Positions 293 to 11,145 of a DNA stretch of 11,342 nt are shown here, piece by piece (positions within the stretch are counted from its first letter, which is position 1; each line of letters starts with the position of its first letter). The DNA is from a virus. Taxonomy: Duplodnaviria; Heunggongvirae; Uroviricota; Caudoviricetes. The notes under the pieces were generated by a model that was given only the letters and a program-made list of their open reading frames with translations, had not been told where the DNA came from and made no database searches. The DNA lies in the IMG/VR virus record IMGVR_UViG_2778261353_000007, positions 1-11,342 of that record, one strand, 5' to 3'. The position numbers were made by a program, and so were the translations under genes.

Positions 293-387
293 GGAAGATC
301 GTCGTCTCCGGTGAGGCGGCTGGACTTCAAATCCAGTTGGGGCCGCCAGCGGTCCCGGGCAGGTTCGACTCCTGTGATCTTCCGCCA
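293..387 (+). tRNA. selC: tRNA-Sec (selenocysteine, anticodon UCA)
   Basis: 95-nt sequence GGAAGATCGTCGTCTCCGGTGAGGCGGCTGGACTTCAAATCCAGTTGGGGCCGCCAGCGGTCCCGGGCAGGTTCGACTCCTGTGATCTTCCGCCA matches the E. coli selC tRNA as I recall it: long variable arm, anticodon TCA at 327-329, encoded 3' CCA. The minus-strand ORFs overlapping it are spurious. Confidence 0.93.
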
Positions 388-549: not shown

Positions 550-1728
550 ATGGCTCTAACCGATATACAGATCAAACGAGCAAAACCACAAGACAAGCCA
601 TACACATTGAACGATGGACAAGGTCTGTCATTGCTTATCAATCCCGATGGCTCGAAAGGCTGGCGTTTCCGTTTCCGATTTGCAGGAAAAGCGCGGTTAA
701 TGTCATTTGGCAGCTACGATTTAGTAAGCCTCGCAGAAGCACGTGAGAAGCGTGATATCGCCCGTAAGCAGGTTGCTAATGGCATTGACCCGGTAGAGGA
801 ACGCAAAGCTTTAAGACTCGCCCAAAAGCTATCAACAGAAAATTCTTTCGAAGCAATATGTCGAGAATGGCATACCAACAAAGCTGACCGCTGGACTGTG
901 GCCTATCGAGAAGAAATTATTAAGACATTCGAGCAGGATGTCTTCCCGTTCATTGGTAAACGTCCTATCAGTGAAATCAAACCATTAGAACTGCTTGAAG
1001 TATTGCGACGAATAGAGAAACGAGGAGCACTAGAGAAGACCAGAAAAGTGCGCCAAAGATGCGGTGAGGTCTTTCGTTATGCAATCATAACTGGCCGAGC
1101 TGAATACAATCCAGCACCTGATTTAGCTATCGCTCTGGCCGTTCCTAAGCAAAAACACCACCCATTTTTATCTGCCGAAGAGTTGCCTTATTTTATTCAA
1201 GATCTTGAAGCGTATACCGGAAGCATCATCACTAAAAATGCGACAAAGATAGTCATGTTAACTGGCGTAAGAACTCAGGAAATGCGCTTTGCCACGTGGG
1301 ATGAAGTTGACCTTGAGAAAGGAATATGGGAGATTCCAGCTGAAAGGATGAAAATGCGCAGGCCTCATATTGTACCTCTATCTACTCAGGTGATTGCCCT
1401 TTTTAAACAGCTCAAGCCTATTAGCGGCCATTATCCCTACATTTTTATTGGAAGAAATAATCGTAGTAAACCGATCTCTAAAGAAAGTGTATCACAGGTT
1501 ATTGAATTACTAGGCTACAAAGGTCGCGCTACAGGTCACGGATTTAGACATACTATGTCAACCATTTTGCACGAAAAGGGATTTGACAGTGTATGGATTG
1601 AAATGCAATTAGCTCACTTAGATAAAAATACTATTCGAGGTACATATAACCATGCACAATATTTAGAGAAGAGAAAAGATATGATGCAATGGTATGCGGA
1701 CTTTTTATACAAATCATTGGAGCGGTAA
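550..1728 (+). CDS. int: Tyrosine site-specific recombinase, P4-type integrase
   Basis: 392-aa ORF directly downstream of a tRNA gene. N-terminus MALTDIQIKRAKPQDKPYTLNDGQGL is typical of P4-family integrase arm-binding domains. C-terminal catalytic signature is present: Arg in LTGVRTQE, HGFRHT box and Tyr in RGTYNHAQY. No obvious Shine-Dalgarno before the ATG. Confidence 0.9.
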   Translation: MALTDIQIKRAKPQDKPYTLNDGQGLSLLINPDGSKGWRFRFRFAGKARLMSFGSYDLVSLAEAREKRDIARKQVANGIDPVEERKALRLAQKLSTENSFEAICREWHTNKADRWTVAYREEIIKTFEQDVFPFIGKRPISEIKPLELLEVLRRIEKRGALEKTRKVRQRCGEVFRYAIITGRAEYNPAPDLAIALAVPKQKHHPFLSAEELPYFIQDLEAYTGSIITKNATKIVMLTGVRTQEMRFATWDEVDLEKGIWEIPAERMKMRRPHIVPLSTQVIALFKQLKPISGHYPYIFIGRNNRSKPISKESVSQVIELLGYKGRATGHGFRHTMSTILHEKGFDSVWIEMQLAHLDKNTIRGTYNHAQYLEKRKDMMQWYADFLYKSLER

Positions 1729-1737
1729 ACGCTCCAA
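1717..1737. terminator. Perfect 8-bp stem / 5-nt loop hairpin between convergent int and membrane-protein genes (possible bidirectional terminator)
   Basis: TTGGAGCG-GTAAA-CGCTCCAA spans the int stop codon; no clear U-tract on either strand, so terminator function is uncertain. Confidence 0.3.
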
Positions 1738-1744
1738 TACATAA

Positions 1745-2386
1745 TTAATATATGGATGCTATTACCATTAAGACTTTAAAGAAAAACATGACGACAATTA
1801 ACCAGATAATTAAATACCCCCAAATACTACTGATATGATAGTTAATTCTACCTTTTAGCATCCTCCAAAAGCTAAAATTTTCAGGCGTATGGGAAATATA
1901 ATATCTGCTCTTTACTATTTTATGATATTCATAATCAACAGGGCTATGGTTGAAAGTGCATGTTGATTTTATTTTTTCATACTCATCGCGAAGATTATCT
2001 ATATTTTTATAATCTTCTTCAGTCATTTCATTTTTTAAGCTATTTTTGAATAGAGAAAGTTTCCTTTCATACTCATTAAGTAACTCAGCATTTCTAAAGA
2101 GAGCTTCAGATTTAGCTCCTGATGCAACTCCCCACTCAATAAGACTAATTATAATTAATAGCATACTTAAGATAATAGAAAATGCGGTTATTAATATATT
2201 GAGTTTAGGATTTATATCATTAATCCAAAAATATTGCATTAATGATAATATAATACTGGAAAGGCCAATTAAAGCGAGACTAATAGTTGAAAAGATCTCT
2301 CTGACCTTTAATCGACGGGATGAATTATATCTTGCACACGATGTTTCCCATGCAGCTTTACTTAGGCTATCCAAAAAATCTTTCAT
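1745..2386 (-). CDS. Hypothetical membrane protein with three predicted TM segments; candidate effector partner of the adjacent reverse transcriptase
   Basis: ORF track gives 1745..2482 (245 aa). I prefer the internal start MKDFLDSL at 2386 (213 aa) because GGAG lies 6 nt upstream (2393-2396) and the longer N-terminus runs into the GC-rich spacer. Hydrophobic stretches IFSTISLALIGLSSIILSLMQYF, LNILITAFSIILSMLLIIISLI and C-terminal ISSIWGYLIIWLIVVMFFFKVLMVIASIY; charged, probably helical region between TM2 and TM3. AT-rich like the RT gene. No family recognised. Confidence 0.65.
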   Translation of the reverse strand: MKDFLDSLSKAAWETSCARYNSSRRLKVREIFSTISLALIGLSSIILSLMQYFWINDINPKLNILITAFSIILSMLLIIISLIEWGVASGAKSEALFRNAELLNEYERKLSLFKNSLKNEMTEEDYKNIDNLRDEYEKIKSTCTFNHSPVDYEYHKIVKSRYYISHTPENFSFWRMLKGRINYHISSIWGYLIIWLIVVMFFFKVLMVIASIY

Positions 2387-2580
2387 TATAAACTCCATGA
2401 ATAGTATAAAGTGACGCAACGCCGGAGATATCAGTCCAATCCTCTTCACCAGCAGTTTCCCCCGATGAAGGTTTACTACCATTTTAGGTCAGGAGCACTT
2501 CTGCCCATCACGGCATTTCCGCATGGGGTACGGCACCTGCAAGGCAAGTGCCGTCGGCGTTGGTCAAGCTCAATATATCA

Positions 2581-3990
2581 TTATTTAGGATATACTTCAC
2601 CTTCATCTGCATGCATGCTAGCTAGATTTTTAGCTTTATATCTCTCATAACGCTCTTCAACCTGTTCTTTAGTTAACCTCTCACCTTCAGCAATCCTTCC
2701 GCGCCGGTGCAAGAATTCAGTTTTTTGTTTAACAGTTTTAATCTGGTCGTAATCTCGTATATAACCTCTATGTGGGCTATATTTCATTTCATAATAAGCA
2801 CGTGTTACCTTTTTCAATCCTTCAGGTGCACAATTATCAAAATCATCCAAGCGTTTAAACATTTCTCTTATTATAAAATCTATTTTATGCAGAAGAGAGT
2901 GGTCGGTAATATTTGAATAATAAGCCACCCATCCATATCTTTTTTTCTCACTAATAGCCCCTGTTAACTTATCATTTAACTCTTCCAGAAAAACATCTTT
3001 AAGATCATCAACGGTTAAATGTGTATACTTCTTTAAACGTTTATTTTTATTGTGAAGATAGTCACTAAACCTAGATGCGATTGATTTTATAAATGATTCT
3101 ACAGTCGAATCTCGCACTGTTATAACATTTGCATTAAAAACATATCCCAAAAAGCTAAAAGACTCATTAAGAAAACCTAAACGTGTCTTAGATGATGTTG
3201 GCGGATGAGTGTTTAATCCCCTATATTTAAGCCTACGCCGTAGTGAATGATAAGCTGAATTTACCTCGTCATAATTTCCATAAATTAGCACATCATCAAC
3301 ATATCTATAGTAAGCTACATCAAACTTTAGCATTTTATCATCAACACTTTGCAGATAAATTGCAGCTAAAATATTAGATATTGACAACCCTTGAGGAACT
3401 CCCTTTTCATTATCAAAAAAAAACTTCCTCATTTTTTTATTAACACTATCACTTGTTGTTGGTGTTAAAAGAGAACGAACTATGAGGTCCAACGCTCTTT
3501 TACAATGCACTCTTTTTGATAGAATCTTTTTAAGTCGATGTTTGTTTATATTGTCATAGAAACCTTCAATATCACAACTACAAACATAAATATCTTCAGG
3601 GGGCATATCTTTTAAATCATCCGAGATATTTCTAATATAAGTTGAAGCAATACTCTTAGGTACACAATCAGGGAAAATCTCACAAAGAAAAACATTGAGC
3701 TGTTTTAATACAATGCGATCTCTAATTGTTGGTATAGAAATTACCCTAGGACTTTTTCCTCGCCCTTTACTTTTTAATTTTTCTAAGTAAGGAGTAAATC
3801 TAAATGAACCGTCAAGACATTTTTCCGAAACTTTCTTTAATTCCTTTCTGGCTCTACTTGAATATTGCATGCCATTGATTCTGTCAATGCCTTTTGCTGC
3901 CGACTTACTAAATTTATCAGAATACACATCAAATAAAGATTTTGGGGAGAAGAGTTTTTTAAATAACGTTTCTTGTGCTCGTTCATCCAT
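2581..3990 (-). CDS. Reverse transcriptase (RNA-directed DNA polymerase), unclassified, probably defence-associated
   Basis: 469-aa ORF with the RT motif series: AAKGIDRINGMQY (motif 0/1-like), RVISIPTIRDRIVLKQL (motif 2), CDIEGFYDNI (motif A, catalytic Asp), GVPQGLSISNILAAIYL (motif B'), YRYVDDVLIYG (motif C, YxDD), FLGYVF (primer grip). About 180-aa charged C-terminal extension. SD-like AAGGTG 5 nt before the ATG. Very AT-rich relative to the P4 backbone. Confidence 0.9.
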   Translation of the reverse strand: MDERAQETLFKKLFSPKSLFDVYSDKFSKSAAKGIDRINGMQYSSRARKELKKVSEKCLDGSFRFTPYLEKLKSKGRGKSPRVISIPTIRDRIVLKQLNVFLCEIFPDCVPKSIASTYIRNISDDLKDMPPEDIYVCSCDIEGFYDNINKHRLKKILSKRVHCKRALDLIVRSLLTPTTSDSVNKKMRKFFFDNEKGVPQGLSISNILAAIYLQSVDDKMLKFDVAYYRYVDDVLIYGNYDEVNSAYHSLRRRLKYRGLNTHPPTSSKTRLGFLNESFSFLGYVFNANVITVRDSTVESFIKSIASRFSDYLHNKNKRLKKYTHLTVDDLKDVFLEELNDKLTGAISEKKRYGWVAYYSNITDHSLLHKIDFIIREMFKRLDDFDNCAPEGLKKVTRAYYEMKYSPHRGYIRDYDQIKTVKQKTEFLHRRGRIAEGERLTKEQVEERYERYKAKNLASMHADEGEVYPK

Positions 3991-4129: not shown

Positions 4130-4148
4130 GTGCTTTCCCCGCCTCGCC
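4130..4148 (-). other. cos site: 19-nt P2/P4 cohesive-end sequence
   Basis: Minus strand reads GGCGAGGCGGGGAAAGCAC, which matches the P2/P4 cohesive-end sequence as I recall it. It lies downstream of psu, as in P4, and is flanked by GC-rich hairpins (4147-4167 and 4197-4218). Confidence 0.55.
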
Positions 4149-4250
4149 CGCCCGCTTTGCGGGGCGGTTTTAATGCAGTTGCACTGACACGCTCAGACCG
4201 CGCCGGGAATGGCGCGGTTTGCAGAAAATGAGGCAGGAAAACGCATGCAA

Positions 4251-4312: not shown

Positions 4313-4885
4313 TTACACAGACTGATGTGATGCCAGTTGCGCACTTTTACGCGAAAAAATCATATTCTGCGCAGGAGTGAATTTTTCACGGCTGTCATCC
4401 ACCGAAGCCGCGTCAGGCCTGAATCCGATGGTCGTTAAAATGTCGCTATCCTGTGCGGAATAATTAATTTTTTCCCCCTTCGCAAGCCAGGACAGAAGGG
4501 CTTCACGCAGGGCATCTGTGGCACGCTGTATGGCACAGTTTCGGGCAATGGCCGTCAGCTCACTGTAGCCCATCAGCTCCGGTGCCAGTGCGGCCGCCAG
4601 TGCTGTGCCGTGCTGCTGCATAAAATCATTCAGCCGGTCGCGGATGCTGATGTGCTGAACGGCTTCATGCGAACGAATATAACGACCGGCAGCCTGATTC
4701 ACCTGCCATTTTCTGACTTCGATAATATTGCGTAATTCGTCCAGGCGACTGACGTTTCTGCCTTCCCCGGACAGAAGCCGCAGATATTCCTGTTCGGCCG
4801 CAGCCAGCTCATTTTTGCGTTGCAGCCATGCTGCTTTGTTATTCTGACAGGTGTCAAAGGCCTGCTGTAAGGCTGTGCTTTCCAT
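4313..4885 (-). CDS. psu: Polarity suppression protein Psu (capsid decoration / Rho antagonist)
   Basis: 190-aa ORF, the size I recall for P4 Psu; last gene of a minus-strand sid-delta-psu operon, followed by terminator and cos exactly as in P4. Confidence 0.88.
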   Translation of the reverse strand: MESTALQQAFDTCQNNKAAWLQRKNELAAAEQEYLRLLSGEGRNVSRLDELRNIIEVRKWQVNQAAGRYIRSHEAVQHISIRDRLNDFMQQHGTALAAALAPELMGYSELTAIARNCAIQRATDALREALLSWLAKGEKINYSAQDSDILTTIGFRPDAASVDDSREKFTPAQNMIFSRKSAQLASHQSV

Positions 4886-4958
4886 CGTTATCTCTTTCTC
4901 ATCATGCTGAAGAATAAAAATACGGTGTGCGGCGACGGCCGGGGTTAACCGGCAGCCC

Positions 4959-5459
4959 TCATTCCAGACGCAGCGAATATGATTGTGTTTTTAACCGTAC
5001 TGGCGGCAGTTCCTGTTTTTCATGCAGGCGTTCTGCCAGTTCGTCCGGCGTGACCGGGCGGACAATGAAGCGGTTGATGGTCTGAAGCGTTTTAAACACC
5101 AGACCACAGCCCGGATCCGTGCACACATAAAAACGTTCGGTGACTTCCTGAGACAGACGCCGCGATGTTCTTGACAGTGCAAGGCCGTTACATCTCCGAC
5201 AACAATATCCGGTAACAAGCATTCTTTTCGGGCGTTTCATACTGCCGGAGGCAGAAGTCAGTGAATCGCGGTATCTCTGTTTGCCTGAAATGTATTCCAT
5301 TCCTGAATCTTTACTGTCAGAGAAAAAGCTTTCACTCGCTTCAAATGTCGCAGAGCAATAAATATTCCGGCACTGTGCAATCATTATCTTGGTGCCATCG
5401 TCCATGAAATGTGCGCGACGAGTGTGAGCAACATGTCCACACGACGGGCAGTAAATCAT
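4959..5459 (-). CDS. delta: Late gene transcriptional activator Delta (tandem Ogr-type zinc finger)
   Basis: 166-aa ORF with two Cys-rich zinc-finger units (CPSCGH...CRNIYC and CCRRCNG...CTDPGCG), matching a duplicated Ogr-like fold. Start overlaps the sid stop (ATGA), indicating translational coupling. Confidence 0.88.
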   Translation of the reverse strand: MIYCPSCGHVAHTRRAHFMDDGTKIMIAQCRNIYCSATFEASESFFSDSKDSGMEYISGKQRYRDSLTSASGSMKRPKRMLVTGYCCRRCNGLALSRTSRRLSQEVTERFYVCTDPGCGLVFKTLQTINRFIVRPVTPDELAERLHEKQELPPVRLKTQSYSLRLE

Positions 5460-6190
5460 GACAGCAGTCCTCTGGCCTTAAGCTCTGCACCCTGCTGGTC
5501 TATTTTGTCCTGCCACACCTTGCGCTGTGCCGGTGTGCCTGCCACCTCATAATCCATGTGCGGGAGTGTTGCCGCTGACAGTCCGGTCAGCCGGAGAACC
5601 GGCTCGCCGGTGAGGCTGATTTGCATCTGTTTAATTTTCTGTTCCAGCGATGATTTCACCTGCTGCATGACAGCCTTTTCCGGTGCGACGTAGCCCTGAT
5701 GGCCGGTGGTGTTGGCGAGCGGATTTTCCTGTACCAGAATGCTCAGATGCATTGCCCGGACAAGCGCCTCACAGGTTTCATTCAGGGCGTGTTCCAGCTC
5801 ATGCTCTGCATACAGACTCAGAAGGTGATGATGTGCCTTCCGGTAGGCGGTGGCCGTGCTGTCACACGCCCCTTTCAGGCGTTCGCGTTCAAAATTCAGC
5901 ACCACGGCCAGATTGTCATATTCCTGTACCAGCTCCCGGCGTGCCACGCGCTCAATGTGGCGCTGTTTCAGCTCGTCGCTCAGGACACCACCGGCTGCAC
6001 GAAAGGCCGTGCGCCAGTCGTCAGCGTCGTTTCCGTCGGCCTGCGCCAGCGCATTTTTTTCCTGCTCTGCCCGTTCAATGGCCGTGACGGTCTCATCCAT
6101 CAGACGGGCGTTCTCAAGATGGGCGGCTCTGGCCTTTTCCAGTTGTGCCAGCGCGGATTGCAGATATTCAGGGATGGTGTTGTCAGACAT
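5456..6190 (-). CDS. sid: Capsid size determination protein Sid (external scaffold)
   Basis: 244-aa ORF, the size I recall for P4 Sid; first gene of the late operon; GAGGAG Shine-Dalgarno upstream of the ATG; helical, Ala/Glu/Leu-rich composition. Confidence 0.9.
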   Translation of the reverse strand: MSDNTIPEYLQSALAQLEKARAAHLENARLMDETVTAIERAEQEKNALAQADGNDADDWRTAFRAAGGVLSDELKQRHIERVARRELVQEYDNLAVVLNFERERLKGACDSTATAYRKAHHHLLSLYAEHELEHALNETCEALVRAMHLSILVQENPLANTTGHQGYVAPEKAVMQQVKSSLEQKIKQMQISLTGEPVLRLTGLSAATLPHMDYEVAGTPAQRKVWQDKIDQQGAELKARGLLS

Positions 6191-6261
6191 TTTCGGCTCC
6201 TCGTCACTTCAGGTTGAGAAAATTGTGACGTACACCGGACAACAACACGACGCATTGCAGA

Positions 6262-6279
6262 TGTGCCAGCCCTGACACA
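6262..6279 (-). promoter_or_regulatory. TGT-N12-ACA dyad, candidate Delta/Ogr activator site of the sid late promoter (Psid)
   Basis: TGTGCCAGCCCTGACACA lies 72-89 bp upstream of the sid ATG, consistent with an activator site centred near -55 of a P2/P4-type late promoter. A second TGT-N12-ACA at 6224-6241 lies closer to the gene. Confidence 0.4.
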
Positions 6280-6358
6280 GGAGACTCATCCTCACACCGG
6301 CAAGCCAGGAAAAGGTCGCAGGAAAAACCGGCTTACTGTTTGTTTTTTTATATTTTAC

Positions 6359-6462
6359 TGTTCACCTCTGTTCACCATAAGAAAAAAGATAAGTAATACA
6401 GTAAGTTAAATGGTGAACAATCGCAGTAATGACTGTTCACCGTCTGTTCACCACTGTTCACC
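6359..6462. repeat. Iteron cluster: six copies of octamer TGTTCACC (five direct, one inverted), ori-like alpha-binding sites
   Basis: Octamers at 6359, 6369, 6434, 6445, 6455 (plus strand) and 6412-6419 (GGTGAACA, inverted). TGTTCACC is the alpha-protein binding iteron of P4 ori/crr as I recall; it lies about 4.8 kb from a second cluster after alpha. Confidence 0.6.
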
Positions 6463-6566
6463 CGTTGATGGGCTTTTTGTGCTGTTTATTACTGTTTGTT
6501 TTTATTAATTCGCCGGGAATGAATAAGAAAAAACGATTTGTATTTCACTATAAAAATTACGAATTG

Positions 6567-6596
6567 CTTTAAGTGGCTTTAAATGACTTTAAGTGG
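6567..6596. repeat. Three tandem 10-bp repeats CTTTAAGTGG / CTTTAAATGA / CTTTAAGTGG
   Basis: Direct tandem repeats with 10-bp (one helical turn) periodicity in the control region upstream of vis; possible protein-binding array. Confidence 0.35.
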
Positions 6597-6621
6597 AGAT
6601 GAACAAAAAACACACAAGCAT

Positions 6622-6639
6622 TGTAAGGCTGCCGGAACA
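6622..6639 (+). promoter_or_regulatory. TGT-N12-ACA dyad, candidate Delta/Ogr site of the rightward late promoter (PLL-like) driving vis
   Basis: TGTAAGGCTGCCGGAACA lies about 100-120 bp upstream of the vis ATG; same dyad class as the Psid site, in divergent orientation. Confidence 0.3.
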
Positions 6640-6741
6640 AATCCCCCCTGTTGCGTCTGCTGAAAATATTCACAAAATAAAGCGCTACCCGAAGCCGGAC
6701 GGACTTATCCGGTGCTGTATGGACATTAACGAGGTAGCCCG

Positions 6742-7008
6742 ATGCAAGCTGTTTTTTCTTCCCCGTCTCCCGCCCCTGTGACGCCACTGATGCCGCTGCC
6801 GGACATCACGCAGGAGCGTTTTTTACGTCTGCCGGAAGTGATGCACCTGTGCGGCCTGTCACGCTCGACCATCTATGAACTCATCCGTAAGGGGGAATTT
6901 CCGCCGCAGGTGAGTCTTGGCGGTAAAAATGTGGCCTGGCTGCACTCTGAAGTCACCGCATGGATGGCCGGCCGCATTGCCGGACGCAAACGGGGGTATG
7001 ACGCATGA
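6742..7008 (+). CDS. vis: AlpA/Vis-family small DNA-binding regulator (excisionase-like)
   Basis: 88-aa ORF with the AlpA-type helix-turn-helix core [27 protein letters not shown] and a conserved Trp-containing tail; GAGGT Shine-Dalgarno 7 nt upstream. Same size and position as P4 orf88/vis as I recall. Confidence 0.75.
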
Positions 7009-7604
7009 TGATGCCCGCTCTGCAAAAAGTCCCTTTTTCTGGCTTGCCTTTTTCCGGCATTTGCGGATATAGTTTTTCCGCTGTCGCAAAATCGGCAGCC
7101 GGGCGTGGAAACCCGAGCAATCTAACGGCGACATATGACGCGCCATGCGTCTTTTTTTGTGTCGCAATCAACGCCACAGAGCGCCAGATTATGGTGTGGT
7201 GTGTGGTCAGTCGAGCAGATGGCACTCCGTGCATCCTGCCCGCGTCCGCTCATTATGCCGCAGAGTCAATGGTAGCTCAGGCGGGGCAGCCTCCGGGCTG
7301 GCCGGTATCCGTTAGAGCCGGTATTTCCACCCCCGTCTGGGCTATCGCCATCGAGCGTGGAAACTCCGGCGATAGCGTAACCTGCTATCTAACGGAGGCT
7401 GCCATCATGGCTACAACCCTTACCCCTTCACACCCTGAATTTGTCTTTGTGTTTGCGGCTGTCCGTCGCGCAGACCGTCATCCCCGTATCTGCATGCTTC
7501 GCACCGTCGCCGGTGATGAACGCAGTGCCCGCCGTTCCCTTGTCCGTGACTATGTGCTCTCCCTTGCTGCCCGTCTGCCGGTGGTGGAGGTGTCCCGTGC
7601 GTAA
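7005..7604 (+). CDS. Questionable 199-codon ORF overlapping the early promoter and immunity RNA region
   Basis: ATG overlaps the vis stop (ATGA), but the frame runs straight through seqA, the candidate CI RNA and seqC, and has Ala/Arg/Pro-rich low-complexity composition. Possibly only an N-terminal kil-like portion is real, or none of it. Confidence 0.2.
7044..7073 (+). promoter_or_regulatory. Candidate early promoter (PLE-like): TTGCCT, 18-bp spacer, TATAGT
   Basis: -35-like hexamer at 7044-7049 and -10-like hexamer at 7068-7073, about 30 bp upstream of seqA. Match by eye only. Confidence 0.3.
7103..7129 (+). promoter_or_regulatory. seqA-like target of the immunity RNA
   Basis: GCGTGGAAACCCGAGCAATCTAACGGC; its ends (GTGGAAA ... 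ATCTAACGG) are complementary to CCGTTAGA ... TTTCCAC at 7309-7330. A near-repeat lies at 7355-7397. Confidence 0.4.
7271..7346 (+). ncRNA. Candidate CI-like immunity RNA containing seqB
   Basis: Contains seqB-like CCGTTAGAGCCGGTATTTCCAC (7309-7330), complementary to seqA and seqC. GGTAGC (7271-7276) can pair with GCTATC (7341-7346) as a closing helix, with internal hairpin CAGCC-TCCG-GGCTG. Boundaries approximate. Confidence 0.35.
7355..7397 (+). promoter_or_regulatory. seqC-like second target of the immunity RNA
   Basis: GCGTGGAAACTCCGGCGATAGCGTAACCTGCTATCTAACGGAG repeats the seqA end motifs (GTGGAAAC ... ATCTAACGG) downstream of seqB. Confidence 0.4.
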
Positions 7605-7884
7605 TAAAAAAGCCCCTCAGACCGTCTCAGCGCGTCATGACGCCCGTGAACACCTCAGCATTGAGGCTTACCATAAGCTCAACCGCGCCAGCGCCGTATC
7701 CCAGTTTGTTGGGGGTGATTTGATTCACCGTGAACTCTCCGGCCTGCATCAGCTCTACATTCCGCATATTTTCAGCTACCTGAATGAAGATATTGATTTT
7801 GTGCTGAATGAACTGAAAGCCAAAGGCCTGTGCCGCGATTTTCTCGCCCAGCAGAAAGACCGGGGAGACAGGACGCATGTTTGA
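7597..7884 (+). CDS. Small protein (95 aa), possible epsilon-like antirepressor
   Basis: In-frame GTG at 7597 is preceded by GGAGG at 6 nt; the ORF-track ATG at 7441 would lie inside the immunity RNA region. Stop overlaps the next start (ATGTTTGA). The epsilon assignment is by position and size only. Confidence 0.45.
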
Positions 7885-8332
7885 TTTTCCCCAGCCCGGT
7901 GAGATTTACCGTTCTGCCGGTTTTCCCGATGTGGCCGTGGTCGGCATTCTGGAAGACGGTATTCCGTGGGAAATGCCGTACCGCTGCCCGGACATTGTCT
8001 GGAACCCGTACCGCCGTAAATTCAGTATCCTTGTGCGTATCCTCGCTGACGGGCGCACCACAGACATCCCGCTGGGGCGTTTTCTGCGGGAATTTACCTG
8101 TGACCGTCCTGACCTGTTTAAACGCAGCCCCGTAAACCGGCATGCGGTACTGAAAGAAATGGCCGGAGACCCGGAATTACAGAAATGGCGGGAGAAATAT
8201 CTGGATATTTACCCGCAGGCCCCTGTTCCGGTCAGCCGGGCGACACCGGTGGCGCGGGAATGGCGGGAAATCCCCCGCACGGAGCCTGACCCGGAAATCA
8301 CACCGGATAACAGTTACCGCAATTATCTGTAA
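7877..8332 (+). CDS. Hypothetical protein, 151 aa (P4 orf151-like)
   Basis: ORF translationally coupled to the preceding gene, same strand as alpha, backbone-like GC content. Function unknown. Confidence 0.6.
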   Translation: MFDFPQPGEIYRSAGFPDVAVVGILEDGIPWEMPYRCPDIVWNPYRRKFSILVRILADGRTTDIPLGRFLREFTCDRPDLFKRSPVNRHAVLKEMAGDPELQKWREKYLDIYPQAPVPVSRATPVAREWREIPRTEPDPEITPDNSYRNYL

Positions 8333-8467
8333 TTAAAAAACGACACCCGAAAAATTAAATGTGCGTATTCGCGCAGGGATACGCACGTCTTCAGGAGACG
8401 CAGATATGCCTTATCAGTTAATGCAACCGGCACGGAATGCAGTCATCTGTCACAGGGAGGAAAGCAA

Positions 8468-8788
8468 ATGAAAACACCCTTACCGCCCGTCTTACGCGCA
8501 GCCCTTTACCGTCGTGCTGTCGCCTGTGCCTGGCTGACCGTGTGCGAACGTCAGCACCGCTACCCGCATCTCACCCTTGAATCACTGGAGGCGGCCATCG
8601 CCGCTGAGCTGGAAGGCTTTTATCTGCGCCAGCACGGTGAGGAAAAAGGGCGTCAGATAGCCTGTGCCCTGCTGGAAGATTTAATGGAATCCGGCCCCCT
8701 GAAGGCCGCGCCGTCGCTGTCCTTTCTCGGGCTGGTTGTGATGGATGAACTCTGTGCCCGTCACATAAAAGCGCCGGTACTGCACTGA
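8468..8788 (+). CDS. Hypothetical protein, 106 aa (P4 orf106-like)
   Basis: Strong GGGAGG Shine-Dalgarno upstream of the ATG; sits immediately upstream of alpha. Function unknown. Confidence 0.6.
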
Positions 8789-8802
8789 AGGAGAACAACA
8801 CC

Positions 8803-11145
8803 ATGAAAATGAACGTAACCGCCACCGTCAGCCATGCGCTCGGCCACTGGCCGCGTATTCTCCCGGCGCTGGGGATTCAGGTGCTGAAAAACCGTCATCA
8901 GCCCTGTCCGGTCTGTGGCGGGAGTGACCGCTTCCGTTTTGATGACAGGGAGGGGCGCGGCACCTGGTACTGCAATCAGTGTGGTGCCGGTGACGGCCTG
9001 AAACTGGTTGAAAAGGTGTTTGGTGTTTCCCCGTCCGATGCGGCCGCAAAGGTGGCTGCCGTGACCGGCAGCCTGCCCCCGGCTGACCCGGCAGTGACGG
9101 CTGCCGCCGGTGCTGAAACAGACGCTGCCCGGAAGAACGCAGCCGCACTGGCACAAACCCTGATGGCGAAAACCCGTCCCGGAACCGGTAACGCCTACCT
9201 GACCCGCAAGGGCTTTCCCGACCGGGAATGCCGGATGCTGACCGGCACACACAGAGCCGGTGGCGTGAGCTGGCGCGCCGGTGACCTTGTGGTGCCACTG
9301 TATGACGACAGCGGCGAACTGGTTAACCTTCAGTTAATCAGTGCTGACGGCCGTAAGCGCACCCTGAAAGGCGGACAGGTCAGGGGCACCTGTCACACCC
9401 TTGAAGGACAGAATCAGGCCGGAAAACGTCTGTGGATAGCGGAGGGATACGCGACCGCACTTACCGTGCATCACCTGACCGGTGAAACGGTGATGGTGGC
9501 GCTTTCTTCCGTGAACCTCCTTTCTCTGGCCAGCCTTGCCCGGCAGAAGCATCCGGCCTGTCAGATTGTCCTTGCCGCAGACCGTGACCTCAGCGGTGAC
9601 GGCCAGAAAAAAGCCGCCGCAGCCGCAGATGCGTGTGAAGGTGTTGTTGCCCTGCCGCCGGTCTTCGGTGACTGGAATGATGCCTTCACGCAGTACGGCG
9701 GGGAAGCCACCCGTAAGGCCATTTATGATGCCATCCGGCCACCGACTGAAAGCCCGTTCGACACCATGAGCGAAGCGGAGTTTTCCGCCATGAGTACCAG
9801 CGAAAAGGCCATGCGTATCTATGAGCATTACGGCGAGGCGCTCGCGGTCGATGCCAACGGCCAGCTTCTGTCCCGCTATGAAAATGGTGTCTGGAAGGTG
9901 CTGCCGCCACAGGACTTTGCCCGGGATGTGGCCGGGCTGTTTCAGCGTCTGCGCGCGCCGTTCTCCTCCGGGAAGGTGGCCTCCGTGGTGGACACCCTGA
10001 AGCTGATTATTCCGCAGCAGGAAGCCCCCTCCCGCCGCCTGATTGGCTTTCGTAACGGCGTGCTCGACACGCAGAACGGCACGTTCCACCCGCACAGTCC
10101 GTCACACTGGATGCGCACCCTGTGCGATGTGGATTTCACCCCGCCGGTGGAAGGGGAAACGCTGGAAAACCACGCCCCCGCGTTCTGGCGCTGGCTTGAC
10201 CGTGCCGCCGGTGGCCGTGCGGAAAAACGCGACGTGATTCTGGCCGCACTGTTTATGGTGCTGGCAAACCGCTACGACTGGCAGCTCTTTCTGGAGGTGA
10301 CCGGTCCCGGCGGCAGCGGCAAAAGTATCATGGCCGAAATCGCCACCCTGCTGGCCGGGGAGGATAACGCCACGTCGGCCACCATCGAGACGCTGGAATC
10401 CCCGCGTGAACGTGCCGCGTTAACTGGCTTCTCACTGATACGCCTGCCGGACCAGGAAAAATGGAGCGGCGACGGTGCCGGACTCAAGGCCATCACTGGC
10501 GGCGATGCGGTGTCCGTGGACCCGAAATACCGGGATGCGTACTCCACGCATATCCCGGCGGTGATTCTGGCCGTGAACAATAACCCGATGCGCTTCACCG
10601 ACCGCAGCGGCGGCGTGTCACGCCGGCGGGTGATTATTCACTTCCCGGAACAGATAGCCCCGCAGGAGCGCGACCCGCAGCTTAAGGACAAAATCACCCG
10701 CGAGCTGGCGGTCATTGTGCGTCACCTGATGCAGAAGTTCAGCGACCCGATGCTCGCCCGGTCACTGCTTCAGTCCCAGCAGAACTCAGACGAGGCACTG
10801 AACATCAAACGGGATGCCGACCCGACGTTTGATTTTATCGGCTATCTGGAAACCCTGCCGCAGACCAGCGGCATGTATATGGGGAACGCCAGTATCATCC
10901 CGCGTAATTACCGTAAATACCTCTATCACGCCTATCTGGCCTACATGGAGGCAAACGGCTACCGGAATGTACTCAGTCTGAAAATGTTCGGGCTGGGGCT
11001 GCCGGTGATGCTGAAGGAATACGGACTGAATTACGAGAAGCGCCATACCAAACAGGGGATACAGACCAACCTGACGCTGAAAGAGGAAAGCTACGGCGAC
11101 TGGCTGCCAAAATGTGACGACCCTGCGACAACCCGACCCTCATGA
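8803..11145 (+). CDS. alpha: Replication protein alpha: primase (zinc finger + TOPRIM) fused to helicase, with C-terminal origin-binding region
   Basis: 780-aa ORF. N-terminal zinc motif CPVCGGSDRFRFDD...YCNQCG; TOPRIM-like region around WIAEGYATALTV and AADRDLSGDGQKKA; Walker A GPGGSGKS. AGGAG Shine-Dalgarno upstream. Size and architecture match P4 alpha. Confidence 0.92.
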   Translation: MKMNVTATVSHALGHWPRILPALGIQVLKNRHQPCPVCGGSDRFRFDDREGRGTWYCNQCGAGDGLKLVEKVFGVSPSDAAAKVAAVTGSLPPADPAVTAAAGAETDAARKNAAALAQTLMAKTRPGTGNAYLTRKGFPDRECRMLTGTHRAGGVSWRAGDLVVPLYDDSGELVNLQLISADGRKRTLKGGQVRGTCHTLEGQNQAGKRLWIAEGYATALTVHHLTGETVMVALSSVNLLSLASLARQKHPACQIVLAADRDLSGDGQKKAAAAADACEGVVALPPVFGDWNDAFTQYGGEATRKAIYDAIRPPTESPFDTMSEAEFSAMSTSEKAMRIYEHYGEALAVDANGQLLSRYENGVWKVLPPQDFARDVAGLFQRLRAPFSSGKVASVVDTLKLIIPQQEAPSRRLIGFRNGVLDTQNGTFHPHSPSHWMRTLCDVDFTPPVEGETLENHAPAFWRWLDRAAGGRAEKRDVILAALFMVLANRYDWQLFLEVTGPGGSGKSIMAEIATLLAGEDNATSATIETLESPRERAALTGFSLIRLPDQEKWSGDGAGLKAITGGDAVSVDPKYRDAYSTHIPAVILAVNNNPMRFTDRSGGVSRRRVIIHFPEQIAPQERDPQLKDKITRELAVIVRHLMQKFSDPMLARSLLQSQQNSDEALNIKRDADPTFDFIGYLETLPQTSGMYMGNASIIPRNYRKYLYHAYLAYMEANGYRNVLSLKMFGLGLPVMLKEYGLNYEKRHTKQGIQTNLTLKEESYGDWLPKCDDPATTRPS

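What the first reader, a model, noticed from the sequence alone, without database searches (positions are those of the whole stretch)
2581..3990. RT has intron-like motif B and YVDD active site with a long C-terminal extension, but no intron or retron context
Motif B' (GVPQGLSISNILAAIYL) resembles the group II intron pattern, and motif C is YVDD rather than the YADD typical of retron and intron RTs. There is no VTG motif and no recognisable domain V or GUGYG intron boundaries in the flanks. The roughly 180 residues after the thumb-like FLGYVF region are charged and helical with no obvious nuclease motif. This mix suggests a divergent lineage.
Basis: seen in the sequence. Interest (0 to 1): 0.6.

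Follow-up and report, generated by a model that had tools for sequence, protein, structure and literature searches.

The report
Known DRT10 phage-defence reverse transcriptase
The reverse transcriptase is not an orphan lineage: it belongs to the already described DRT10 (UG17) anti-phage system, together with a small RNA and a membrane protein encoded next to it, carried by a P4-like phage satellite in E. coli.

Summary
A 469-aa RT (2581-3990, minus strand) has GVPQGLSISNILAAIYL, YVDD and FLGYVF, then 184 charged, helical residues. It has no VTG motif and no intron or retron RNA nearby.

The reading as a divergent lineage without partners is wrong. The RT matches the UG17 (DRT10) profile at 4e-140, against 3e-35 for the next family. 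Its protein is identical to WP_000344414.1, the E. coli H120 RT. That RT, with its SLATT partner, sits between psu and int of a P4-like satellite and makes sbcB essential.

Both DRT10 partners are present:
- A SLATT_5 membrane protein lies at 1745-2386 (minus).
- A structured ncRNA of about 150 nt lies in the 194-nt spacer. A covariance model built from 23 distant homologues, without the window, finds it at 2408-2568 (56 bits, E about 3e-15).

The template loop reads GAU-UGGACU-GAU, the A-B-A' pattern that programmes telomerase-like repeat addition. I predict protein-primed synthesis of (AGTCCAATC)n, probably primed from the invariant Tyr467.

Verdict: already known, low novelty.

The parts
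2581..3990 (-). DRT10 (UG17, subtype B) reverse transcriptase, 469 aa, identical to WP_000344414.1 of E. coli H120
   Evidence: ORF. PADLOC RT_UG17 4.4e-140 over residues 6-466, next family 2.7e-35. Pfam RVT_1. 100% identical to the RefSeq CDS WP_000344414.1, which is the H120 entry in Tang et al. Table S1.
3292..3303 (-). Catalytic YVDD (residues 230-233)
   Evidence: Invariant in 25 homologues. YVDD>YVAA abolishes DRT10 defence in the literature (PMC12632851).
3352..3402 (-). RT motif B region GVPQGLSISNILAAIYL (residues 197-213)
   Evidence: G197, P199, Q200, L202, S205, N206, L208, A209, I211 and Y212 are invariant.
2584..3135 (-). C-terminal 184 residues (286-469): conserved helical domain plus flexible tail
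   Evidence: AF2 pLDDT is mostly 84-95 for residues 294-461, and the tail 464-469 is below 50. Many invariant positions: HNK313-315, ELN337-339, RYGW351-354, GY409-410, RGR430-432. No PDB sequence match beyond about residue 320.
2590..2592 (-). Tyr467 codon, candidate priming residue for protein-primed cDNA synthesis
   Evidence: Y467 is invariant in 25/25 homologues within MHADEGxxY, while S458 is not conserved. DRT10 enzymes prime from a C-terminal Ser (Eco3 S456) or Tyr (Eco1 Y444). The assignment here is an inference.
2572..2580 (-). Putative extended -10 promoter of the ncRNA (UG-a-UAUAUU), directly after the RT stop codon
   Evidence: Sequence. A TANNNT hexamer lies within a 13-nt window upstream of P1 in 27/35 homologues, at offset -25 from the start of SL2 in most; four more, including the window, have it at -23. 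About 18% would be expected by chance for such a window. Function is inferred, and the simple sigma-70 scan did not list it.
2408..2568 (-). DRT10 ncRNA (core about 2413-2565): basal stem P1, SL2, SL3, GAAGUGCUCC hairpin, SL5, template loop
   Evidence: Covariance model R1 was built from 23 homologous spacers, excluding the window and its closest relative. It hits here at 56.3 bits, E=2.9e-15, full length, and the next hit in the window scores 11 bits. The model structure has 81% of cells paired against 41-49% when partners are slid, 41 of 56 pairs show compensatory changes, and 0/500 shuffles reach it. The single-sequence fold is -72 kcal/mol, z=-4.4. GC is 0.49-0.55 in a roughly 30% GC gene pair.
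2444..2470 (-). SL5, the stable stem-loop just 5' of the template (proposed template boundary element)
   Evidence: CUUCAUC...GGUGAAG stem. Helix 7 of the model shows compensatory changes in 10 of 14 pairs. Its role as a boundary comes from PMC12632851.
2425..2443 (-). Template loop AG-GAU-UGGACU-GAU-AUCUC: A = 2439-2441, B = 2433-2438, A' = 2430-2432
   Evidence: An A-B-A' repeat of at least 3 nt with period 7-11 starts in the first 5 nt of the loop in 27/29 distinct homologous loops, against 7.9 +/- 2.4 (maximum 16) in 2000 shuffles. GAU...GAU occurs in 22/29.
1745..2386 (-). SLATT_5 membrane effector, 213 aa (start MKDFLD as in RefSeq; the longer ORF from 2482 overlaps the ncRNA and is probably not used)
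   Evidence: Pfam SLATT_5 6e-31. PADLOC RTasSLATT 1e-35. RefSeq start. Three hydrophobic segments at about 30-52, 60-90 and 183-213. A SLATT gene lies on the same strand downstream of the RT in 37 of the fetched genome loci, with the 36 measurable spacers 195-245 nt long apart from one of 350 nt.
1715..1739 (-). Terminator-like hairpin ending the module, 5 nt after the SLATT stop and convergent with int
4313..4885 (-). psu, one border of the P4 satellite defence hotspot
   Evidence: Pfam Psu 1.3e-88.
550..1728 (+). P4-type tyrosine integrase, the other border of the hotspot, next to tRNA-Sec (293-383)
   Evidence: Pfam Phage_integrase and Arm-DNA-bind_3. tRNA-Sec 83.8 bits. The same layout is found in E. 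coli VG12A2.

Best explanation
The RT is the enzyme of a complete DRT10 (UG17, subtype B) anti-phage system, carried as cargo in the psu-int hotspot of a P4-like satellite integrated at the tRNA-Sec gene. The module has three parts in the order RT, ncRNA, SLATT.

Shown here by sequence analysis:
- The RT belongs to UG17 and has an intact YVDD.
- A SLATT_5 membrane protein follows on the same strand.
- The 194-nt spacer holds the family's structured ncRNA.
- The ncRNA's loop after the last stem-loop carries GAU-UGGACU-GAU.

Inferred from published experiments on homologues (PMC12632851; bioRxiv 10.64898/2026.04.29.721553):
- The RT binds the ncRNA and starts DNA synthesis from a hydroxyl side chain in its own C-terminal tail, here most probably Tyr467.
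- It copies the short template GAUUGGACU up to the SL5 boundary.
- The nascent DNA's 3' ATC then re-pairs with the downstream GAU, and the cycle repeats as in telomerase.
- The product would be long single-stranded (AGTCCAATC)n covalently attached to the RT.
- The host 3'-5' exonuclease SbcB (ExoI) keeps the DNA products in check.
- Phage infection, for example through an SSB-like phage protein, shifts this balance, and the SLATT protein then damages the membrane and aborts infection.
- How the DNA controls SLATT is not known for any DRT10 system.
For: Family placement: RT_UG17 4.4e-140 against 2.7e-35 for the next family; RTasSLATT 1e-35; SLATT_5 6e-31.

Identity: the window RT is 100% identical to WP_000344414.1. 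That is the E. coli H120 entry in Tang et al. Table S1.

Published context for the H120 RT+SLATT:
- It lies between psu and int of a P4-like satellite and makes sbcB essential.
- It is placed in UG17-B.

Architecture: the RT-then-SLATT order with a spacer of about 200 nt is the published alternative UG17 arrangement. It is seen in 37 of the fetched genome loci.

ncRNA:
- An independent covariance model hits window 2408-2568 at E=2.9e-15.
- Covariation is strong.
- The spacer shares GGAAGUGCUCC, ACCUUC and GGAU..GACUGAU with the published Eco2-type DRT10 ncRNAs.

Template: A-B-A' sits at a fixed place after SL5 in 27/29 distinct loops, against about 8 expected.

Priming tail: Y467 is invariant and lies in a disordered tail.

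Fold: full-length similarity to DRT9, and to group II-like RTs for the core.
Against: Nothing measured here contradicts the explanation, but several steps were not measured.
- The window's ncRNA is a compact variant that lacks two hairpins of the consensus. It scores 56 bits against 100-187 for most homologues.
- A second small repeat, GGA-UU-GGA, overlaps the template and could make repeat addition less precise.
- The priming residue is assigned by conservation only. Serine priming is known in the family, and the AF2 tail is of low confidence, so proximity to the active site could not be checked.
- The two published studies disagree on whether cDNA rises or falls on infection.
Confidence: 0.92

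Rival explanations
1. A group II intron-type RT/maturase, either a degenerate or ORF-only intron remnant or a free-standing group II-like RT such as G2L4.
For: The best PDB sequence and fold matches for the RT core are group II intron and G2L4 RTs. Public databases label it 'maturase'.
Against: - No intron RNA domain was found at E<=1 anywhere in the window.
- The UG17 profile scores 465 bits, against at most 120 bits for any other RT profile.
- The conserved neighbours are a SLATT gene and a non-intron ncRNA.
- The C-terminal domain has no sequence match to solved maturase or other PDB chains.
Confidence: 0.01
2. A retron: the RT makes msDNA from an msr/msd RNA, and the SLATT protein is the retron effector.
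For: Some sources annotate relatives as 'retron-type reverse transcriptase'. Retrons also pair an RT and an ncRNA with a toxic effector, and they occur in P4 hotspots.
Against: - No VTG motif.
- No Rfam retron msr hit.
- Retron RTs are only weak structural matches, TM 0.37-0.40.
- The ncRNA lies downstream of the RT and has the DRT10/DRT9-like multi-hairpin architecture with a short looped template, not msr-msd inverted repeats.
Confidence: 0.01
3. A UG/Abi RT that works without an RNA template (AbiK, DRT4 or DRT7-like random or homopolymer protein-primed synthesis) or with a homopolymer template (DRT9-like poly-dA). In this reading the spacer RNA is only a scaffold.
For: The RT belongs to the same UG/Abi superfamily. 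There is full-length structural similarity to DRT9, and the ncRNA architecture resembles DRT9's according to PMC12632851.
Against: - The template loop is not U-rich.
- It keeps a positionally conserved A-B-A' repeat with a variable B, as expected for templated repeat addition.
- All nine DRT10 homologues tested in PMC12632851 gave tandem repeats matching their A-B-A'.
Confidence: 0.04
4. The module is decayed or inactive in this satellite: a correct family member that no longer functions.
For: Truncated RT variants of this same gene circulate in E. coli. The ncRNA is a reduced variant.
Against: - All three parts are intact here.
- The catalytic and invariant residues are all present.
- The identical H120 protein has a genetic phenotype, sbcB essentiality that is relieved by an insertion in the RT.
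Confidence: 0.05

Closest known systems
DRT10 / UG17 subtype B, specifically the E. coli H120 RT-SLATT locus (Rousset 2021/2022; Mestre 2022; Tang 2025, PMC12632851; Sanchez-Nieto 2026)
   Same: - Identical RT protein (WP_000344414.1).
- Same psu-int position in a P4-like satellite.
- Same RT-spacer-SLATT order.
- YVDD, a SLATT_5 partner, and an Eco2-type ncRNA with an A-B-A' template loop.
   Different: Nothing of substance. I could not establish whether this exact locus is one of the three E. coli systems (Eco1-3) tested biochemically, because the tables naming them were not available. Published Eco2 is said to have a 2-nt A/A', while this locus has 3 nt (GAU).
Eco3DRT10 / UG17-A systems (SLATT-then-RT order)
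   Same: - Same family profile.
- Tripartite ncRNA + SLATT + RT.
- Short looped template after a stem-loop.
- Priming from the C-terminal tail.
   Different: - Gene order is reversed here: RT first, with the ncRNA between the genes.
- The ncRNA class differs, and published models work only within a subtype.
- The likely priming residue is Tyr467 rather than Ser456.
- The predicted repeat is AGTCCAATC rather than GAATCATTG (same length, 9 nt).
DRT9 (UG28)
   Same: - Class 2 UG RT with full-length structural similarity.
- Multi-hairpin ncRNA with a template loop.
- Protein-primed synthesis of long repetitive ssDNA.
   Different: - DRT9 copies a poly-U tract into poly-dA and primes from internal tyrosines in a hexamer.
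- Here the loop carries a mixed-sequence A-B-A' template.
- Here a SLATT protein is the obligatory partner.
Telomerase (TERT + telomerase RNA)
   Same: Works alike: a short RNA template with an alignment segment, a structured 5' boundary element, and repeat addition by realignment.
   Different: - Not a member of that family.
- Primes from protein rather than a chromosome end.
- About 470 aa with no TEN or TRBD domains.
- Serves immunity rather than end maintenance.
Group II intron RTs / G2L4
   Same: Closest solved RT cores by sequence and fold.
   Different: - No intron RNA.
- No sequence match to solved structures beyond about residue 320.
- Different partners and product.

Membership tests
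DRT10 (UG17) | RT matches the UG17 profile better than any other RT group | tested here: met
   PADLOC RT_UG17 4.4e-140, 465 bits, residues 6-466 of 469. The next family is at 2.7e-35.
DRT10 (UG17) | Intact catalytic YVDD | tested here: met
   Residues 230-233, invariant among 25 homologues.
DRT10 (UG17) | Adjacent SLATT (SLATT_5) gene | tested here: met
   Gene at 1745-2386 on the same strand. Pfam SLATT_5 6e-31 and PADLOC RTasSLATT 1e-35. The linkage is kept in 37 of the fetched genome loci.
DRT10 (UG17) | Structured ncRNA directly upstream of the SLATT gene | tested here: met
   A covariance model from 23 homologues without the window hits 2408-2568 at 56.3 bits, E=2.9e-15. The spacer shares motifs with published Eco2-type ncRNAs.
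DRT10 (UG17) | [quoted passage not shown] | tested here: met
   GAU-UGGACU-GAU at 2430-2441, two nucleotides after SL5. The pattern is enriched at the same place in 27/29 distinct homologous loops, against 7.9 +/- 2.4 in shuffles.
DRT10 (UG17) | Conserved hydroxyl residue in the C-terminal tail for protein priming | tested here: inconclusive
   Y467 is invariant in 25/25 homologues and lies in a flexible tail. Its proximity to the active site and its function could not be tested.
DRT10 (UG17) | Synthesis of tandem-repeat cDNA and RT-, ncRNA- and SLATT-dependent phage defence | not testable with these tools
   Known only from the literature for homologues. For the identical H120 protein, only the sbcB genetic interaction is reported.
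UG17 subtype B (RT-then-SLATT arrangement) | RT upstream of SLATT with a spacer of about 200 bp | tested here: met
   The spacer is 194 nt. The H120 locus was placed in UG17-B by Sanchez-Nieto et al..
P4-like satellite defence hotspot | Cargo lies between psu and int of a P4-like element | tested here: met
   psu, delta, sid-position ORF (no Pfam match), C4 RNA, alpha primase, int and tRNA-Sec are all present. The cos site is at 4130-4148. The same layout is annotated in RefSeq.
Group II intron | Intron RNA domains (for example V/VI) and splice boundaries flanking the RT ORF | tested here: not met
   No intron family hit at E<=1 in the whole window.
Retron | msr/msd RNA next to the RT; VTG motif in the RT | tested here: not met
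   No Rfam retron hit. VTG is absent. Structural matches to retron RTs are weak.

The most novel reading that the evidence does not exclude
In this RT-ncRNA-SLATT arrangement the ncRNA may be made as the 5' leader of the SLATT mRNA. A conserved -10 element sits at the RT stop codon, only 26 nt separate the ncRNA's basal stem from the SLATT start codon, and no terminator lies between them. RT binding or cDNA synthesis on the leader could then control SLATT expression in cis. That would be a regulatory layer not described for DRT10. A smaller possibility is that the overlapping GGA-UU-GGA and GAU-UGGACU-GAU registers yield mixed 5- and 9-nt repeats.
Probability: 0.1. Interest if true: 0.45.

Novelty: already known. 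Interest (0 to 1): 0.15.

Why it matters
DRT10 is biologically notable: it is a compact, protein-primed, telomerase-like repeat-adding RT used for phage defence. This locus, however, adds no new kind of system, and its RT protein is one already catalogued and studied genetically.

The practical value is in annotation.
- Public records call the RT 'maturase', 'retron-type' or 'reverse transcriptase domain-containing protein'.
- The annotated E. coli record examined lists no RNA feature in the spacer.
- The longest-ORF call for SLATT overlaps the ncRNA.
- Rfam 15 has no model that finds the ncRNA.

The window gives explicit coordinates for the ncRNA, its template and the candidate priming residue of the UG17-B H120-type system. 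These are directly testable.

Tried and rejected
- A first scan of genome contigs with the single protein found no relatives. A second scan with the alignment gave 53 loci.
- I tried to establish whether the window is one of the biochemically tested Eco1/2/3 systems. The supplement tables naming them (S8, S9) and most Eco2 rows were cut in the stored copy. Only the H120 identity could be shown.
- The simple sigma-70 scan found fewer promoter-like sites than the shuffles and none upstream of the RT or the ncRNA. The ncRNA promoter proposal therefore rests on the conserved TANNNT element.
- A search for a duplicated att repeat of the tRNA-Sec 3' end inside the window found nothing. The far end of the satellite probably lies outside the window or was not resolved.
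- Group II intron, retron, DRT9-like and template-free readings were considered and rejected (see the rival explanations).
- Ser458 as the priming residue was rejected because it is not conserved.
- The GGA-UU-GGA 5-nt register as the main template was rejected because it occurs only in the window and its closest relative L002, whereas GAU...GAU is conserved across the family.

Full report
**Observation**

The minus-strand ORF 2581-3990 encodes a 469-aa protein.
- GVPQGLSISNILAAIYL is at residues 197-213.
- YVDD is at residues 230-233.
- FLGYVF is at residues 280-285.
- VTG and YADD are absent.
- 184 residues follow FLGYVF, 36% of them charged, with no simple nuclease strings.

Pfam finds only RVT_1 (1.6e-20, residues 78-284). 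A permissive Rfam 15 scan of the whole window found no group II intron or retron RNA. It found only tRNA-Sec, C4, isrK and c4-a1b1. The description is therefore accurate.

**What the RT is**

Against PADLOC models the protein matches RT_UG17 at 4.4e-140 (465 bits, residues 6-466). The next RT model scores 2.7e-35.

The ORF directly downstream on the same strand matches the RT-associated SLATT models (1e-35) and Pfam SLATT_5 (6e-31).

UG17 is the RT of the defence system DRT10. Two studies describe it: Tang et al. 2025 (PMC12632851) and Sanchez-Nieto et al. 2026 (bioRxiv 10.64898/2026.04.29.721553). According to them:
- The system has three required parts: a structured ncRNA, a SLATT protein and the RT.
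- The RT primes on its own C-terminal tail and adds short tandem DNA repeats.
- The repeats are copied from an A-B-A' template in a loop of the ncRNA, in the manner of telomerase.

**Genomic setting**

The window is a P4-like satellite. It holds the following features:
- tRNA-Sec at 293-383;
- integrase at 550-1728;
- psu at 4313-4885;
- delta at 4959-5459;
- an ORF in the sid position at 5456-6190, which has no Pfam match;
- the C4/isrK immunity RNAs at 7067-7352;
- the alpha primase at 8803-11145.

The 19-nt sequence that I recall as the P2/P4 cos site lies at 4130-4148.

The RT-SLATT pair sits between psu and int. This is the satellite's known hotspot for defence cargo (Rousset et al. 2022, PMC9122126). 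GC content falls to about 30% across the two genes, against 50-60% in the P4 backbone.

Among 5,426 complete E. coli genomes, only 5 carry the whole block, at 99.8-99.9% identity. In strain VG12A2 it lies in the same context.

**Identity with a studied protein**

The window RT is 100% identical over all 469 residues to the VG12A2 CDS, whose accession is WP_000344414.1. That accession is the entry for E. coli H120 in Tang et al. Table S1. Three things are known about the H120 RT+SLATT:
- It is the pair that makes the exonuclease gene sbcB essential.
- It led Rousset et al. to the P4 hotspot.
- Sanchez-Nieto et al. place it in subtype UG17-B.

**The ncRNA**

RefSeq starts the SLATT gene at window 2386, which leaves a 194-nt spacer after the RT stop codon. 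The spacer is a GC-rich island and folds well, at -72 kcal/mol with z = -4.4.

Using an alignment of 25 RT homologues, I fetched 53 genome loci from Beta- and Gammaproteobacteria, Cyanobacteria and other groups. In 37 of them a SLATT gene follows the RT on the same strand; the 36 measurable spacers are 195-245 nt long, with one of 350 nt.

The spacers share conserved blocks. These are CCUAYCGC, ACCUC, GCGGAAGUGCUCC, ACCUUC and GAAG-[A/U]GGAU..GAC.UGAU. The same blocks occur in the published Eco2-type DRT10 ncRNAs.

A seven-helix structure drawn on 23 of these spacers, leaving out the window and its closest relative, is well supported:
- 81% of cells are paired, against 41-49% when partners are slid.
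- 41 of 56 pairs show changes on both sides.
- 0 of 500 shuffles reach the observed values.

The covariance model built from that alignment hits the window at 2408-2568 on the minus strand. The hit is full length, at 56.3 bits and E = 2.9e-15, and the next best hit scores 11 bits.

The window's RNA is a compact version of the consensus that lacks two hairpins. In window coordinates its parts are:
- P1 at 2555-2565 paired with 2413-2424;
- SL2 at 2530-2554;
- SL3 at 2504-2527;
- the GAAGUGCUCC element at 2492-2501;
- SL5 at 2444-2470;
- the template loop at 2425-2443.

**Template and predicted product**

The loop reads AG-GAU-UGGACU-GAU-AUCUC.

Across 35 model hits, a repeat of at least 3 nt with a period of 7-11 nt starts in the first five loop positions in 27 of 29 distinct loops. 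Shuffled loops give 7.9 +/- 2.4. GAU...GAU itself occurs in 22 of the 29, with B varying in length and sequence. This is the signature Tang et al. showed to programme repeat addition.

By that rule the template is GAUUGGACU and the product is (AGTCCAATC)n with a 9-nt period. This is a prediction, not a measurement. A second, lineage-specific repeat (GGA-UU-GGA) overlaps the template and might reduce precision.

**The C-terminal extension**

This region is strongly conserved, with invariant HNK, ELN, RYGW, GY and RGR blocks. The family ends in ...MHADEGxxY, and Tyr467 is invariant in 25 of 25 sequences while Ser458 varies.

AlphaFold2 (pLDDT 84, pTM 0.77) predicts residues 294-461 as a confident helical domain with a small hairpin. 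The last six residues are disordered.

No solved structure matches this region by sequence. By fold, the whole chain aligns best with G2L4, DRT9 and GsI-IIC group II intron RTs, then with DGR and DRT2 RTs.

Published DRT10 enzymes prime from a C-terminal Ser or Tyr. I therefore infer that Tyr467 is the priming residue here.

**Expression**

Immediately after the RT stop codon lies UG-a-UAUAUU (2572-2580), an extended -10-like element. A TANNNT hexamer lies within a 13-nt window upstream of P1 in 27 of 35 homologues, at offset -25 from the start of SL2 in most. Four more, including the window, have it at offset -23.

No terminator-like site lies between the ncRNA and the SLATT start. The two are 26 nt apart, with a GGAG Shine-Dalgarno sequence between them. 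A terminator-like hairpin follows the SLATT gene at 1715-1739.

The ncRNA therefore probably has its own promoter and may be co-transcribed with SLATT. This is an inference.

**Mechanism and verdict**

The best explanation is a complete DRT10/UG17-B module. The RT-ncRNA complex constitutively makes protein-linked tandem-repeat ssDNA, and host SbcB limits the DNA products. Phage infection changes that balance, and the SLATT membrane protein then executes abortive infection. The link between the DNA and SLATT is unknown in the field.

Group II intron, retron, template-free and DRT9-like readings are rejected on the tests above.

The finding is already known, so interest is low.

Noticed in passing
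window 293-383 (+), 550-1728 (+), 4313-11145: The whole window is a P4-like satellite integrated next to the tRNA-Sec gene. It holds int, psu, delta, an ORF in the sid position with no Pfam match, the immunity RNAs and the alpha primase. GC content is about 30% in the RT-SLATT cargo against 50-63% in the backbone.
   Followed up: partly
window 4130-4148 (-): There is an exact match to GGCGAGGCGGGGAAAGCAC, which I recall as the 19-nt P2/P4 cos sequence. It lies between psu and the RT and overlaps a GC-rich hairpin at 4148-4167. The identification rests on memory, not on a database.
   Followed up: partly
window 7067-7352 (+): Rfam finds c4-a1b1, isrK and C4 antisense RNA. This is the P4-type immunity RNA region, and it is intact.
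   Followed up: no
window 2387-2482 (-): The longest SLATT ORF (245 aa, start at 2482) runs through the 3' half of the ncRNA. RefSeq and the Pfam match both support the start at 2386. Gene callers that take the longest ORF would hide the ncRNA.
   Followed up: yes
window 2572-2580 (-); homologous loci L003-L046: A TANNNT -10-like hexamer lies within a 13-nt window upstream of the ncRNA's basal stem in 27 of 35 homologues (offset -25 from SL2 in most), and in 4 more, including the window, at offset -23. In the window it has a TG extension and abuts the RT stop codon.
   Followed up: partly
window 2408-2568 (-) versus L003-L042: The enterobacterial ncRNA (window and Serratia locus L002) is a compact variant. 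One hairpin is reduced to ACCUAAAAUGGU, another is missing and SL5 is shortened. It scores 55-56 bits against 100-187 for most Betaproteobacterial copies.
   Followed up: partly
window 2408-2568 (-): Rfam release 15 gives no hit for the DRT10 ncRNA even at E<=1, so standard RNA annotation will miss it.
   Followed up: yes
E. coli relatives (Tang et al. Table S1 entries UG17_locus_1340 and 1346; clusters P0015 and P0021): Truncated versions of this same RT occur in other E. coli assemblies. They end near residue 320-330 with a changed C-terminus, or are 282-369 aa partial sequences. They may be decayed copies or assembly breaks.
   Followed up: no
window 2433-2443 (-): A second small repeat, GGA-UU-GGA, overlaps the predicted template. 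It occurs only in the window and L002. It could act as a cryptic realignment site, like the one reported for Eco1DRT10.
   Followed up: no
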